DNA from: a virus
Direction: 5' to 3' (one strand)
UHGV virus genome: UHGV-0148496
DNA length: 16,302 nucleotides
Shown: piece by piece, positions 12,001-16,302 of the stretch
How the letters are laid out: each line of letters opens with the position of its first letter
Position numbering within the stretch: position 1 is the stretch's first letter
Made by a program: the position numbers

Positions 12001-15000
12001 TGGGTTAATGAAAAGTACACGCGCTGGGTTAAGACGCAGCCGTGTGCATGTTGTGGAAAGCCTGCTGATGATCCCCACCACCTGATAGGCCACGGTCAGG
12101 GGGGAATGGGTACAAAAGCGCATGACCTCTTCGTGCTGCCTTTGTGCAGAAAGCATCACGACGAGCTGCATGCGGATACCGTGGCATTTGAAGAGAAGTA
12201 TGGCTCCCAGCTGGAGCTGATATTTCGTTTTATCGATCGTGCGCTGGCAATAGGCGTGCTGGCCTGATTTTGTGGAGAAAGTTGATGCGTGATATTCAAA
12301 TGGTTCTTGAACGTTGGGGGGCATGGGTGGCAAATAATCACGAGGATGTGGAATGGTCATCTGTTGCTGCAGGTTTTAAGGGATTAATTCCTTCGAAAGT
12401 AAAATCCCGCCCGCAATGTAGCGATGACGATGGCCTGATCATTAGCTCTGCGATGACAGTTCTTAAGAAAAAGGAACCGTATCAATACGAATTACTGGAA
12501 ATGTATTATGTGTATGGGGTTACATTACGGGTGTTGGGGGTAAAACTGGGGATATCACTTAATCAGGTTGTTATCAGACTGCAGAAAGCTGAAGGGTTTA
12601 TTGACGGTTGTCTGGCAATGTTGGGGGTATCTTTAGAAATTGATTGTTACATATAGTAATAAATTCAATCAAAGTAAATAATCATATTTTATTATAACCT
12701 CCTGATGATACCTGTTCATTGGGAGGTTATTATGGATAAAAATGTAGAGCATGTATTAGTTGATGCAATTGAAAATAAGCAATCTTTAACAGTCGTTTAC
12801 TTAGGAGGGAGCCAGCCCGGAACATTAAGGAATATTTCTCCGATTAGTATAAATGGGGATAAATTGCGGGCAAGATGCCATAGTTCTGGAGCAGTAAAGG
12901 TTTTCAATCTTGGGAAAATACAGTTACCCAGTGACTCCTGCGCGGTATCTATGCACTATGGAGATTTAGAAGTTAAAGCTTATGAGACGATGCAGAGCGT
13001 AAATGACAACTTTCATGCCCTTTATCCTGAAGGACGATGGGGTGTTGATTTTAATGAGCATCGCTTTGCTTTATTTGATTTTTTTAAAAACGGGAAACGA
13101 AAAAAAACGGCATTTATGGCAATTGAGTTCAGGGAAAGAGATGAAGAGAAAATAATAACAGGTGTAACAATTGATATTGGTATATCTGGAACAGTGATTT
13201 CTGAGAAGTCCCGAATCCCAAAAAGACGACCATGGGTAGTGGTTGGTCCCGAACACGGAGAATACAGTACTTATTCAACTTTGGACAAGGCTGCTACAGC
13301 GTTTTTTGAGAGGCTTTCGTTGATAGCATCCGGCCTGGAAGATAATTGATTTTATGTTTGGTATTCAGAGTTCGCCGTGCTTAAGAAAGTCAAGATTCTA
13401 AAAATACTGAATGAGCTACTTGTGTTATAACAAAAATGCTATTAGTGTGTTAAGAGTGGTTACTTCGCCACACAACTTAAACCCGCCACTGAGCGGGTTT
13501 TTTGTACCTGTAAACTTGGTGCAGTACAGTAAACACGCTGGTGGTCGTGAATACTGGCTTTTTATCTTGCTGGCTTTTTAGACAAGAGTTATTGGTATGT
13601 CACGTTAACCGGAAAGGGTAAAAAGACATGCTGAAACAGCAGGATATGACAGAAACCGCCAGAGTTGTGTTTGATGAATTAAGCGTTACCGAACCGGCGA
13701 CAGTCGGGGAGATTGCGCAGAATACTTACCTTTCACGCGAACGCTGCCAGTTAATACTGACCCAGCTTGTTATGGCGGGTCTGGCAGACTATCAGTGCGG
13801 TTGTTACAGACGCCTTCAGTCCTGAAGGCTTTTTATTTGTGGTGAATGGGCGGCTGGTGGGGGGGCGACACCTGTCAGTCCTTTGCTTATGTGTTGATGA
13901 TAATTTACCTTTGGGGGCTATAATTGAGCTAACCAATTGCTAATGAAAGTAAAATTATAATGGCTGTTGTCTGTTCAGTTATCATGGTTTGCTCCCCAAT
14001 TAATATTTTTCTTGAAAAGGATACGTTGTCACTTAAGCCAGGCTCAGTTGTTCTGGCCACCAAATGCATCAGGGAGCTTTTCCTTATGCATTATGGCAAA
14101 GTTAAAATTGTCGATATAAGCGAATCCGTCGTAAGTCAATATCTGGAAAGTCAGCATAAGCTGACGAGGACTCGTCTGACTGACATTCCGCTTTACCTGT
14201 TGCTGGAACCCAACAATCCTGCGTTGGCTGCGGCTTTAATTACCAGCCAGGGATTTTCCGGAGAGGCCACGGATATGTTTCTTATGATGGCCTGCCTGTC
14301 TCTGTTTGAAACAGATGAACGGATGTCATTGTTTTTAAGTGGATGTTTATCCAGCATAAGTGCCAAAGTCAGGGCGATAATTCAGACAGATATATCAGCA
14401 AGCTGGACGCTTGGTGCGATTGCTCTACAGTTGCATATGAGTGAGAGTTTGTTAAAGACAAAACTGAAAAATGAAGGGGGCATGTTCAGTCGCTTGTTGC
14501 TGGAAGAGCGGATGCGTGTTGCTGTAAATATGTTATGTTCCCGGCATGGATATGGACAGGCTATAGCAGAAAAATGCGGTTATTCAAGCAGGTCCTACTT
14601 TATTTCTGTATTTCACCGCTATTATGGCTTCCCGCCAGACAGATATGTATCCAGGCAAGGGCTTGATTATTGATTTTCATCTGATTATTATTTTTTGGCT
14701 CGGCCCTTTAGCTCAGTGGTGAGAGCGAGCGACTCATAATCGCCAGGTCGCTGGTTCAAATCCAGCAAGGGCCACCATCACATACCGCCATTAGCTCATC
14801 AGGAAAGAGCGCCAGCCTTCGAAGCTGGTTGCGCGGGGTTCAAGTCCCCGATGGCGGTCCATTATCTGCATCATGCGTTGTTAGCTCAGCCGGACAGAGC
14901 AATTGCCTTCTAAGCAATCGGTCACTGGTTCGAATCCAGTACAACGCGCCACACTTATTTTCCCTGGCTCGCTTTTGTGGGCCTTTTTTTTAAATGTCTC

Positions 15001-16302
15001 ACAATTCAGGCGGTTGACTGTTGTCTGGTTTGCGGGGAGTTTGTTAAAAGAAACTGGCATGGTGAATCCCCCTGTGCGGAGGGGCAATCAGCAACTGGTG
15101 TTTTGTCACCGACCCTTATCCTTTCTGTGCGGGTTCAGGTGCTGATACTGAACTCACCGGGAGGCACCCGGCACCATGTGCATGATGATACAGATACGCG
15201 GCTTTAGCCCCTCTCCGGAGGGGCTTTCTTGTGGGCAAAAAAAGCCCGCGCTGGGAGACGCGGGCGGCAAGGAATAAACAACAAAACGTGAAGTAATATT
15301 TCAGCTGGCGAATAATATCCGACAGTAATCACTCTGCGCAATAGCGCGGCCTTTTTCGTATTGCGGGCTGTTGTCTATCTTCTGCCATTGTCCTGTAACT
15401 TCCGGACTTCAGCCCGCTCCTCATTTTACTCACAATATTATCCAGGCCGGGAGGATTCATGGCATTTAAACACTATGACGTGGTCAGGGCGGCGTCGCCG
15501 TCAGACCTTGCGGAGCGACTGACACAAAAACTGAAGGAGGGGTGGCAGCCATTTGGCAGTCCGGTGGCCATCACGCCTTATACCCTGATGCAGGCCATTG
15601 CGGCGGAAGGTGATGTCACCACACCTGTGGTGGTGAAGCCGTCGGATGGAGAAGGCGCAGTTATCAGCACCACCAGCAACCCGGAGTATTACTTTGTTGT
15701 TGCCCTGGCCGGGCAGTCAAACGGTATGGCGTATGGTGAAGGGCTTCCGCTGCCGGAGACATATGACCGTCCGGACCCGCGTATTAAACAGCTGGCGCGT
15801 CGCAGCACTGTCACGCCGGGTGGTGCGTCCTGTAACTACAATGACATTATTCCTGCGGACCACTGCCTGCATGATGTTCAGGATTTGAGTAAGTTTTCAC
15901 ACCCGAAAGCCAGCGCAGCTCAGTATGGATGCGTGGGGCAGGGATTACATATCGCGAAGAAATTGTTGCCGTTTATTCCGGCGAATGCCGGTATTCTTCT
16001 GGTTCCGTGCTGCCGTGGTGGTTCTGCATTTTTGGCGGGCGATGAAGGTACCTTCAGCGAATCCACCGGCGCAAGCGAGACCTCGGCACGCTGGGGTGTA
16101 GATAAGCCACTGTACAAGGACCTGCTTACCCGTACTCAGGCCGCACTGAAGGCTAACCCTAAAAATATTCTGCTTGCAGTGGTCTGGATGCAGGGCGAGT
16201 TTGATTTGAAACAGGGTGCATACGCCACTCAGCCGGGGCTGTTTGATTCCATGGCTGTCTCTTATACACATCTGACGCTGCCGACGATACTCCTTGTGTA
16301 GA

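What the first reader, a model, noticed from the sequence alone, without database searches (positions are those of the whole stretch)
14702..15458. Stx-phage-type tRNA cluster followed by an empty toxin position
The Ile(CAU)-Arg(UCG)-Arg(UCU) arrangement matches the ileZ-argN-argO set that Stx phages carry between Q and stxAB (recalled). Here the ~500 bp between the last tRNA and the nanS-p-like gene has no credible ORF, only a T8 run (14983-14990), two related GGAGGGGC hairpins and back-to-back terminators (15206-15265). This is consistent with an stx-negative relative of Stx phages, or a site from which cargo was lost.
Basis: partly seen in the sequence, partly recalled or inferred. Interest (0 to 1): 0.45.

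Follow-up and report, generated by a model that had tools for sequence, protein, structure and literature searches.

The report
Toxin-less Stx-type prophage; spacer encodes sRNAs
This is the ordinary late-gene region of an E. coli prophage closely related to Shiga-toxin phages but without the toxin genes, and the "empty" 500 bp after the three tRNA genes holds two already described small regulatory RNA genes that face each other.

Summary
The three tRNAs are real. They are ileZ-type Ile2(CAU), Arg(UCG) and Arg(UCU), and are 76/76, 72/77 and 76/77 identical to those of the Sakai Stx2 prophage Sp5. Alignment with Stx2 phages puts the toxin slot between window bases 14992 and 14995. There Stx2 phages carry a 1.33 kb stx2AB cassette, and a UPEC prophage carries terB plus DUF3927. 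The window has nothing in the slot and no stx remnant.

The following ~465 bp are not empty. They hold a full-length STnc100 family sRNA (Rfam RF02076, 134.7 bits; EcOnc27/PasD relatives) on the + strand. A convergent minus-strand sRNA is 179/182 identical to an Hfq-bound EPEC sRNA (EcOnc08/21/42 class).

Convergent sRNAs between the moron slot and the nanS-p-type gene were described by Tree et al. 2014. The toxin-less junction occurs in 1020 of 5426 complete E. coli genomes, including Sakai prophage Sp4.

The backbone is 95% identical to an Stx2k phage up to the slot, so "stx-negative relative" holds. "Cargo lost" has no support. The right flank matches non-Stx phages (94-99%), not Stx phages (70-83%). 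Already known; low interest.

The parts
12285..12656 (+). Late antiterminator Q gene
   Evidence: Pfam PF06530 Phage_antitermQ, E 1.3e-47, full length. PGAP calls it 'antiterminator Q family protein' in the 99.95% identical cM8a prophage.
13960..14673 (+). AraC-family regulator gene, a PsrA homologue; a moron just upstream of the tRNAs
   Evidence: Pfam HTH_AraC and HTH_18. 175/195 aa (90%) identical to Sakai Sp4 ECs1087, which is named psrA in PMC13502914. A promoter-like site lies at 13897-13924 and a terminator-like site at 13812-13829 upstream.
14663..14691 (+). Sigma-70-like promoter candidate for the tRNA operon (TTGATT, 17 bp spacer, TATTAT)
   Evidence: Consensus scan, 9 of 12 matches. 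The TTG and TTATTA elements are invariant across otherwise divergent upstream contexts: Sp5, Nil3, Sp4 and the Stx2k phage. Function is inferred, not shown.
14702..14777 (+). tRNA with anticodon CAT, ileZ type (Ile2; needs lysidine at position 34)
   Evidence: ARAGORN. Rfam 72.5 bits. 76/76 identical to Sakai ileZ2. PGAP calls it tRNA-Ile.
14785..14861 (+). tRNA-Arg (UCG), argN type
   Evidence: ARAGORN. Rfam 59 bits. 72/77 identical to Sakai argN2.
14875..14951 (+). tRNA-Arg (UCU), argO type
   Evidence: ARAGORN. Rfam 70.1 bits. 76/77 identical to Sakai argO2.
14966..14991 (+). Intrinsic terminator of the tRNA operon (stem 14966-14983, T8 run 14984-14991)
   Evidence: Terminator scan. Motif positions. 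Conserved in Stx2 phages up to the slot.
14992..14995 (.). Moron (stx) slot, unoccupied here
   Evidence: Sp5, WGPS6, 12E129 and the Stx2k phage match up to 14992, and Sp5, WGPS6 and 12E129 resume at 14995 with the stx2 cassette in between; beyond the slot the Stx2k phage has only a fragment matching 15129-15227. UPEC-245U has 755 bp (terB plus DUF3927) at the same point. No stx remnant anywhere in the window.
15028..15236 (+). STnc100-family sRNA gene (EcOnc27/PasD relatives). Internal hairpin at 15068-15084; terminator hairpin at 15207-15224 plus a U-rich tail.
   Evidence: Rfam RF02076, 134.7 bits against a gathering score of 47, model positions 1-206 of 206. Same family at the same place in Sp5 (207.7 bits), WGPS6, PhiR5_1 and O145 RM9154. 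Consensus fold has 34 pairs, 3 with compensatory changes. The 5' end is uncertain. It is about 15057 by homology with the PasD2 5' end, or further upstream by the EcOnc27 northern size and Hfq peak.
15237..15418 (-). Convergent minus-strand sRNA gene of the EcOnc08/21/42 class (EPEC 'E2348C_1409.E2348C_1408.IGR'). Terminator at 15265-15244 plus U7; putative seed CCUUGCC at 15272-15266.
   Evidence: 179/182 identical to the EPEC sRNA. Exact 35/35 match at 15311-15345 to the EcOnc08/21/42 northern probe of Tree 2014. The Sakai Sp4 EcOnc08 and EcOnc21 peaks lie at the equivalent place. The 3' 64 nt fold with z = -3.97. It does not match the AsxR or AgvB models.
15334..15357 (+). Further + strand terminator-like hairpin in the nanS-p leader
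   Evidence: Terminator scan. The region 15334-15518 is 93.5% identical to Sp5. Its role is inferred.
15459..16254 (+). 5' part of a nanS-p-type esterase gene (DUF1737 plus SASA), cut by the contig end
   Evidence: Pfam DUF1737 (E 3.9e-16) and SASA (E 1.8e-08). PGAP calls it 'SASA family carbohydrate esterase' in cM8a.

Best explanation
The window is the regulatory and early-late part of a lambdoid E. coli prophage with the backbone of known Stx2-converting phages but no toxin genes. Downstream of Q lies a chain of self-contained modules:
- a PsrA-type AraC regulator;
- the ileZ-argN-argO tRNA operon with its own promoter-like site and terminator;
- the slot where other phages carry stx2AB or terB, empty here at 14992/14995;
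- a pair of convergent sRNA genes;
- the nanS-p esterase gene, followed by the lysis genes.

How it most likely works:
- The tRNAs decode AUA, CGA and AGA/AGG. These codons are over-used in the prophage, above all in the adjacent morons. This step is inferred.
- The + strand STnc100-family RNA and the minus-strand EcOnc08/21/42-type RNA are made in the lysogen, each ending at its own intrinsic terminator. They act as Hfq-associated base-pairing regulators of host and island mRNAs. This is shown for homologues in EHEC and EPEC and inferred here.
- Q-modified RNA polymerase must read through the + strand terminators at about 14966-14991, 15207-15233 and 15334-15357 to express nanS-p and lysis. 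This follows from established lambdoid late-operon logic.

The toxin-less state is best read as one allele of a modular, recombining slot, not a deletion scar.
For: tRNAs.

Slot mapping. Alternative cargo (terB plus DUF3927) at the same junction.

STnc100: 134.7 bits, full length. The same family lies 75 nt after stx2B in Sp5 with AsxR convergent to it. [quoted passage not shown]

Minus-strand RNA: 179/182 identical to the EPEC sRNA, whose RIL-seq partners include the cfa and dppA 5'UTRs, emrA and tir. The target motif GGCAAGG is complementary to CCUUGCC, which is present in the window. The northern probe matches 35/35.

Prevalence: the empty-slot junction is in 1020 of 5426 genomes and the minus-strand sRNA in 985 of 5426. 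Sakai Sp4 has the identical layout. Phage Nil3 has the toxin-less junction at 99.3% identity.

Backbone: 95.2% identity over 77% of the window to the Stx2k phage. 99.95% identity to the cM8a prophage, where lysis and head genes follow.

Codon counts: ATA 8.7, AGA 5.6, AGG 4.1 and CGA 7.4 per 1000 in the prophage. In the three morons next to the tRNAs: ATA 23.7, AGA 11.8, AGG 15.8.
Against: No expression data exist for this strain.

The thermodynamic signal of the STnc100 copy is weak (z = -1.21). Covariation is modest: 3 of 34 pairs.

The function of STnc100 itself has never been shown. The window copy lacks the PasD seed UGUGAG, so its targets are unknown.

The 5' ends of both RNAs are uncertain. 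Homologue sizes are 172-173 nt (PasD) against about 235/247 nt (EcOnc27) for the + strand RNA, and 182 nt (EPEC) against about 271 nt (Sakai) for the minus-strand RNA.

E. coli average codon frequencies were taken from memory, not computed here.
Confidence: 0.85

Rival explanations
1. The prophage descends from an Stx2 phage that lost the stx2AB cassette by deletion, so the site is a vacated cargo position.
For: The backbone and left flank are 92-95% identical to Stx2k, Stx2a and Stx2c phages right up to 14992. Loss of stx phages or genes is well documented in the literature (for example the PMC4609726 abstract). T-runs at both ends of some cargo cassettes could mediate deletion, such as TTTTTAAAT at the right end of the terB cargo.
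Against: No stx DNA or protein remnant was found. The junction is clean and shared by 1020 genomes. The right flank is only 70-83% identical to the Stx2 phages examined but 94-99% identical to non-Stx phages PhiR5_1 and UPEC-245U. None of the 40 best spacer matches listed at 90% identity or more is an Stx phage. A simple deletion would leave both flanks equally similar.
Confidence: 0.1
2. The spacer encodes a small protein, for example one of the 68-80 aa ORFs at 14903-15145 (+), 14977-15207 (+) or 14881-15087 (-). On this view the conservation is due to coding, not RNA.
For: ORFs of 40-80 aa exist on both strands. PGAP places partial 'hypothetical protein' pseudogene fragments on the minus strand over the STnc100 region in some genomes.
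Against: PGAP calls no CDS there in the 99.6% identical genome. The ORFs start inside the tRNA genes or their terminator. Homologues differ by hypervariable segments and indels that do not preserve a frame, while the paired RNA helices stay invariant or co-vary. The covariance-model score is 134.7 bits.
Confidence: 0.03
3. The tRNA sequences are leftovers of chromosomal tRNA integration sites, not functional phage-borne genes.
For: The Pas sRNA preprint reads tRNA hits near prophage sRNAs as integration hot spots.
Against: There are three complete tRNAs with CCA ends, in tandem, in the middle of the prophage between Q and lysis. They are identical or nearly identical to ileZ/argN/argO of free Stx2 phage genomes. 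They are flanked by a conserved promoter-like site and a terminator.
Confidence: 0.02

Closest known systems
Sakai prophage Sp4 (non-Stx lambdoid prophage of E. coli O157:H7): Q - CAAX protease - hyp - psrA (ECs1087) - ileZ1 argN1 argO1 - EcOnc08/21 region - ECs1088
   Same: Same gene order from the small hypothetical gene through psrA, the three tRNAs, a ~490 bp spacer and the esterase. 87% identity over window 13448-16204. PsrA is 90% identical. The EcOnc08 and EcOnc21 Hfq peaks lie at the place of the window's minus-strand RNA.
   Different: The cargo between Q and the small hypothetical gene differs: a CAAX protease in Sp4, a 205 aa ORF that PGAP calls WYL-domain in the window. The internal variable segment of STnc100 differs, as in O145 RM9154.
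Stx2 prophage Sp5 / 933W-type locus: Q - ileZ argN argO - stx2AB - STnc100 (EcOnc27) >< AsxR (EcOnc02) - nanS-p (ECs1207)
   Same: The tRNA block and its terminator are 94% identical. STnc100-family RNA on the + strand, with a short terminated RNA convergent to it, lies before nanS-p. The nanS-p leader is 93.5% identical.
   Different: Sp5 has the 1.33 kb stx2 cassette in the slot. Its convergent RNA is AsxR (88 bits), which the window lacks. The STnc100 alleles are only about 70% identical. Sp5 has no psrA-type gene upstream of the tRNAs.
Phage phiSTEC1575-Stx2k (OQ243220)
   Same: 95.2% identity over window 875-14989, including the AraC/PsrA-like gene and the tRNAs. It is the nearest sequenced phage backbone.
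   Different: It carries stx2k in the slot, followed by only the 3' half of STnc100, then iraM, with no nanS-p. Its Q gene differs.
PasD1/PasD2 sRNAs of EPEC E2348/69 (Pearl Mizrahi 2021; Zhu, Shabalina and Storz 2026 preprint)
   Same: [quoted passage not shown] Same 5' start sequence GCAUGGUGAAUCC and 5' hairpin. About 172-174 nt to the terminator. The preprint states a common origin with STnc100.
   Different: The central and 3' single-stranded parts differ. The PasD seed UGUGAG is absent from the window copy. blastn finds only a 47 nt similarity.
Phage Nil3 (AM051322), from E. coli O157:H7
   Same: The toxin-less junction from argO into the spacer is 99.3% identical over window 14925-15075. 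The spacer is 90% identical over 461 nt.
   Different: It has a 933W-type nin/Q region upstream, not the window's region. The deposited record ends inside the spacer.

Membership tests
ileZ-argN-argO tRNA cluster of Stx and lambdoid phages | Three tandem tRNAs with anticodons CAU, UCG and UCU, in that order | tested here: met
   ARAGORN; Rfam 72.5, 59.0 and 70.1 bits
ileZ-argN-argO tRNA cluster of Stx and lambdoid phages | Sequence identity to the Sp5 genes | tested here: met
   76/76, 72/77 and 76/77 identical
ileZ-argN-argO tRNA cluster of Stx and lambdoid phages | Position downstream of Q and upstream of the nanS-p and lysis genes | tested here: met
ileZ-argN-argO tRNA cluster of Stx and lambdoid phages | The CAU tRNA is read as Ile through lysidine-34 | not testable with these tools
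   Only annotation supports it (tRNA-Ile by PGAP and the Sakai record). ARAGORN labels it Met.
Stx-converting phage | Carries stxA and stxB | tested here: not met
   blastn of the Sp5 stx2 cassette against the window: best E 0.77. tblastn of Stx2A and Stx2B: best E 0.95.
Stx-converting phage | Backbone homology to sequenced Stx phages | tested here: met
   77% coverage at 95.2% identity to phiSTEC1575-Stx2k; 60-76% coverage by Stx2a and Stx2c phages
STnc100 (Rfam RF02076; EcOnc27) | Covariance-model score above the gathering threshold over the full model | tested here: met
   134.7 bits against 47, model positions 1-206 of 206
STnc100 (Rfam RF02076; EcOnc27) | Intrinsic terminator at the 3' end; located between the moron slot and the esterase gene on the late strand | tested here: met
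STnc100 (Rfam RF02076; EcOnc27) | Expressed as a discrete, Hfq-associated RNA | not testable with these tools
   Shown only for homologues: EcOnc27 at about 235/247 nt, with the 247 nt form destabilised without Hfq; PasD1/2
PasD sRNA | Seed UGUGAG before the terminator, and near-identity to PasD1/2 | tested here: not met
   The seed is absent. Only a 47 nt similarity at the 5' end was found.
Anti-sRNAs AsxR / AgvB (RF02703 / RF02702) | Match to the covariance models (conserved ~42 nt 3' region) | tested here: not met
   No hit at E up to 10 in 15190-15460 or E up to 1 in 13300-15600. Positive control Sp5: AsxR 88.1 bits, AgvB 40.9 bits.
Anti-sRNAs AsxR / AgvB (RF02703 / RF02702) | Short terminated RNA convergent with STnc100 in the moron region | tested here: met
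   Minus-strand terminator at 15265-15244 abutting the STnc100 terminator
EcOnc08/21/42 = EPEC E2348C_1409.E2348C_1408.IGR sRNA | Sequence identity to the described RNA | tested here: met
   179/182 identical to the EPEC RNA. 35/35 match to the published northern probe.
EcOnc08/21/42 = EPEC E2348C_1409.E2348C_1408.IGR sRNA | Seed CCUUGCC complementary to the RIL-seq target motif GGCAAGG | tested here: met
   Present at 15272-15266 on the minus strand
EcOnc08/21/42 = EPEC E2348C_1409.E2348C_1408.IGR sRNA | Expression and Hfq binding in this host | not testable with these tools
   Shown only in EPEC and EHEC

The most novel reading that the evidence does not exclude
The two convergent sRNA genes might behave as exchangeable specificity cassettes. 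Their helices and terminators are invariant. The internal loop and the single-stranded stretch before the terminator of STnc100 are hypervariable between prophages (alignment A2, columns 29-79 and 131-176). The minus-strand partner comes in unrelated alleles, AsxR or EcOnc08-type. Each toxin-less or toxin-bearing prophage would then bring its own regulatory targets.

The 5' end of the long STnc100 isoform would fall at the slot boundary (about 14993-15000, by the ~235-247 nt size of EcOnc27). Whatever cargo sits in the slot could therefore set sRNA expression. The window's STnc100 allele would then have targets not yet described.
Probability: 0.15. Interest if true: 0.4.

Novelty: already known. 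Interest (0 to 1): 0.12.

Why it matters
It matters mainly as a correction. An apparently empty stretch next to a virulence-gene slot is in fact dense with RNA genes that ORF-based reading and standard genome annotation leave blank. PGAP annotates nothing there.

For surveillance, the locus shows that a prophage with an Stx2-phage backbone, the tRNA cluster, psrA and nanS-p can be toxin-free. It also shows that this state is common, in about a fifth of complete E. coli genomes. The tRNA-nanS-p context alone is therefore not a marker of Stx phages or of toxin loss.

Nothing here changes current understanding of these elements.

Tried and rejected
1. I looked for stx remnants. blastn of the 1332 bp Sp5 cassette and tblastn of Stx2A and Stx2B against the whole window gave nothing better than E 0.77 and 0.95.

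2. I tested whether the minus-strand RNA is AsxR or AgvB. There was no Rfam hit even at E up to 10 on 271 bases, although the models work on Sp5. It is a different allele, EcOnc08/21/42.

3. I tested whether the + strand RNA is PasD proper. Only the 5' 47 nt align and the seed is missing. I filed it as STnc100 type.

4. Thermodynamic support for the STnc100 fold is not significant (z = -1.21). The identification rests on the covariance model and on homologues.

5. I tried to fix the STnc100 promoter and 5' end from sequence. TGtTAAAAG (15042-15050) with TTGTCT (15021-15026) would fit a start at 15057, as in PasD. But the EcOnc27 Hfq peak and its ~235/247 nt size imply RNA upstream of that. This is left open.

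6. Weak Rfam hits below threshold (STnc130, snoZ13, OmrA-B, Leu leader, anti-hemB) were treated as chance.

7. The small-protein reading of the spacer ORFs was rejected (see rivals).

8. I did not use the large protein-homology or structure tools, because no protein question was decisive for this finding.
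Full report
**Observation**

ARAGORN finds three tandem tRNA genes at 14702-14777 (anticodon CAT), 14785-14861 (TCG) and 14875-14951 (TCT). Rfam's tRNA model scores them 72.5, 59.0 and 70.1 bits against a gathering score of 29. ARAGORN labels the CAT tRNA Met. It is 76/76 identical to ileZ2 of the Sakai Stx2 prophage Sp5, and PGAP annotates it tRNA-Ile in a near-identical genome. argN and argO are 72/77 and 76/77 identical to the Sp5 copies.

- The terminator after argO has its stem at 14966-14983. Its T8 run is at 14984-14991, one base to the right of what was written.
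- The two GGAGGGGC-type hairpins are at 15068-15084 and 15207-15224.
- A minus-strand terminator lies at 15265-15244.

Terminator-like sites are enriched in 12600-15520: 10 found against 3.0 +/- 2.0 in shuffles.

**Where the toxin would be**

Stx2 phages Sp5, Stx2a_WGPS6 and Stx2_12E129 align to window 14698-14992 at 93-95% identity and resume at 14995. The roughly 1.33 kb stx2 promoter-A-B cassette lies in between. In the window the slot is therefore two bases wide.

A UPEC prophage carries a different 755 bp cargo, terB family plus DUF3927, at the same point. No trace of stx exists anywhere in the window. The best blastn E-value with the cassette is 0.77, and the best tblastn E-value with Stx2A and Stx2B is 0.95.

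**The spacer is not empty**

Rfam finds a full-length STnc100 (RF02076) at 15028-15236 on the + strand: 134.7 bits against a gathering score of 47, E 5e-30. The same family sits at the equivalent place in four other loci:
- Sp5, 207.7 bits, starting 75 nt after stx2B
- WGPS6
- the non-Stx phage PhiR5_1
- an O145 prophage

In Sp5 it is immediately followed by the convergent anti-sRNA AsxR (88 bits). Tree et al. 2014 described exactly this layout. [quoted passage not shown]

An eight-sequence alignment gives a consensus fold with a long closing helix, three hairpins and the terminator. It has 34 pairs, 3 of them with compensatory changes. Two segments between the conserved helices are hypervariable. 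The single-sequence folding z-score is not significant (-1.21).

[quoted passage not shown] The window copy shares the PasD 5' start (GCAUGGUGAAUCC at 15057) and overall length. It lacks the PasD seed.

**The minus strand**

The window does not match the AsxR or AgvB models. Bases 15418-15237 on the minus strand are 179/182 identical to the EPEC sRNA 'E2348C_1409.E2348C_1408.IGR'. What is known of that RNA comes from PMC8550237 supplements:
- It was identified by Hfq RIL-seq.
- Its partners include the cfa and dppA 5'UTRs, emrA and tir.
- The target motif is GGCAAGG, complementary to CCUUGCC.
- The authors equate it with EcOnc08/21/42 of EHEC.

The window has CCUUGCC at 15272-15266. It also has an exact 35/35 match, at 15311-15345, to the EcOnc08/21/42 northern probe of Tree 2014. 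The 3' 64 nt fold into a terminator hairpin with z = -3.97.

**Context and relatives**

The window is 99.95% identical over 694-16254 to a prophage of E. coli cM8a, where DUF1378, DUF826, holin, lysozyme, terminase and capsid genes follow nanS-p.

In the window the order is:
- Q (PF06530)
- a 205 aa ORF (WYL-domain by PGAP)
- a 65 aa ORF
- an AraC-family regulator
- the tRNAs
- the sRNA pair
- the DUF1737-SASA esterase

The AraC protein is 90% identical to Sakai ECs1087, which is PsrA. Sakai prophage Sp4 has the same psrA - ileZ1 argN1 argO1 - spacer - esterase layout, with the EcOnc08 and EcOnc21 peaks in the spacer.

The nearest phage genome is phiSTEC1575-Stx2k. It is 95.2% identical over 77% of the window and ends at 14989. 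It has the same AraC gene and tRNAs, followed by stx2k. Stx2a and Stx2c phages cover 60-76% of the window, and non-Stx phages such as mEp460 cover 65%.

**Prevalence**

| Feature | Query | Complete E. coli genomes with at least 80% coverage |
|---|---|---|
| Toxin-less junction | 14925-15075 | 1020 of 5426 |
| Minus-strand sRNA | 15237-15420 | 985 of 5426 |

The genomes with the toxin-less junction include O157:H7, O145:H28, O111:H8 and O104:H4 strains. Phage Nil3 from an O157:H7 strain, deposited with Q-tR'-tRNAs and no stx, has the junction at 99.3% identity.

**Loss or never present?**

The left flank is 93-95% identical to Stx2 phages. The right flank (sRNA module) is only 70-83% identical to them but 94-99% identical to non-Stx phages. 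The module begins at the same TCACAATTCAG boundary whatever lies upstream: tRNAs, terB cargo, stx2, or small ORFs in PhiR5_1.

This pattern fits modular recombination at a moron slot better than a simple deletion of stx. An old loss followed by recombination cannot be excluded.

**Mechanism**

Shown here: the gene content, boundaries, terminators and homologies.

Shown elsewhere for homologues:
- Hfq association and discrete sizes of EcOnc27 (about 235/247 nt), EcOnc08/21/42 (about 271 nt) and PasD (172-173 nt).
- RIL-seq partners of the EPEC RNA.
- PasD2 in CsrA complexes.

Inferred for the window:
- Both RNAs are expressed in the lysogen and act by base pairing.
- The tRNA operon is transcribed from its own conserved promoter-like site at 14663-14691.
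- The tRNAs help translate rare codons that the prophage over-uses. ATA, AGA, AGG and CGA occur at 8.7, 5.6, 4.1 and 7.4 per 1000 codons. In the three adjacent morons ATA, AGA and AGG occur at 23.7, 11.8 and 15.8 per 1000. The comparison with host averages rests on memory.
- Q-dependent antitermination is needed to pass the + strand terminators before nanS-p.

**Verdict**

The tRNA observation is right, and the stx-negative-relative idea is right. The 'empty' spacer is a known pair of sRNA genes, and the arrangement is the common one in non-Stx lambdoid prophages. This is already known biology, and interest is low.

Noticed in passing
window 16255-16302: The last 48 bases are an Illumina Nextera adapter: CTGTCTCTTATACACATCT, then GACGCTGCCGACGA, then TACTCCTT (apparently an index), then GTGTAGA. 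Identity to the cM8a prophage stops exactly at 16254. The contig end is untrimmed library sequence, and the ORF 15459-16301 is artificially closed by it.
   Followed up: yes
window 6606-6794 (inside ORF 6246-7397): Rfam finds isrK (6606-6682, 61.6 bits) and C4 antisense RNA (6707-6794, 82.4 bits). Both lie inside the long ORF that PGAP calls a Rha family regulator, under its Pfam 'Ash' stretch (aa 117-213), while the Rha domain is at aa 223-308. This looks like a P1 immI / Gifsy IsrK-type c4-antirepressor module. The ORF start may be over-called.
   Followed up: partly
window 13960-14673: The AraC-family gene directly upstream of the tRNAs is 90% identical (175/195 aa) to Sakai Sp4 ECs1087, which is PsrA. 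[quoted passage not shown] A promoter-like site lies at 13897-13924.
   Followed up: partly
window 14998-15005 and 15429-15436: The octamer CTCACAAT occurs twice on the + strand. One copy is at the invariant left boundary of the sRNA module. The other is 23 nt upstream of the nanS-p start codon. CUCACA is the reported target motif of PasD sRNAs. The second copy also abuts a minus-strand promoter-like -10 (GATAAT, 15442-15437). The meaning is unknown.
   Followed up: no
L007 2867-3037 and 3350-3524; L009 1227-1600 and 3151-3575; L011 7142-7241: The STnc100 gene is structurally plastic in relatives. STEC2018-553 has two tandem copies of different alleles. The EPEC PP6 copy is split by ISEc13. 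The Stx2k phage keeps only the 3' half.
   Followed up: partly
window 12705-13349 and 13628-13825: Two further cargo ORFs lie between Q and psrA. One is a ~205-214 aa ORF that PGAP calls WYL-domain but has no Pfam hit at E 0.001 or better. The other is a 65 aa ORF conserved with Sp4 and O145 prophages. Other prophages have a CAAX/CPBP protease or a nucleoid-associated protein at the first position. These three morons are very rich in ATA, AGA and AGG codons.
   Followed up: partly
window 209-693: This is the only part of the window that does not align with the cM8a prophage. Window 1-208 and 694-16254 match at 99-99.95% identity, but the segment between corresponds to a longer, different stretch in cM8a, in the DUF551 gene region.
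   Followed up: no
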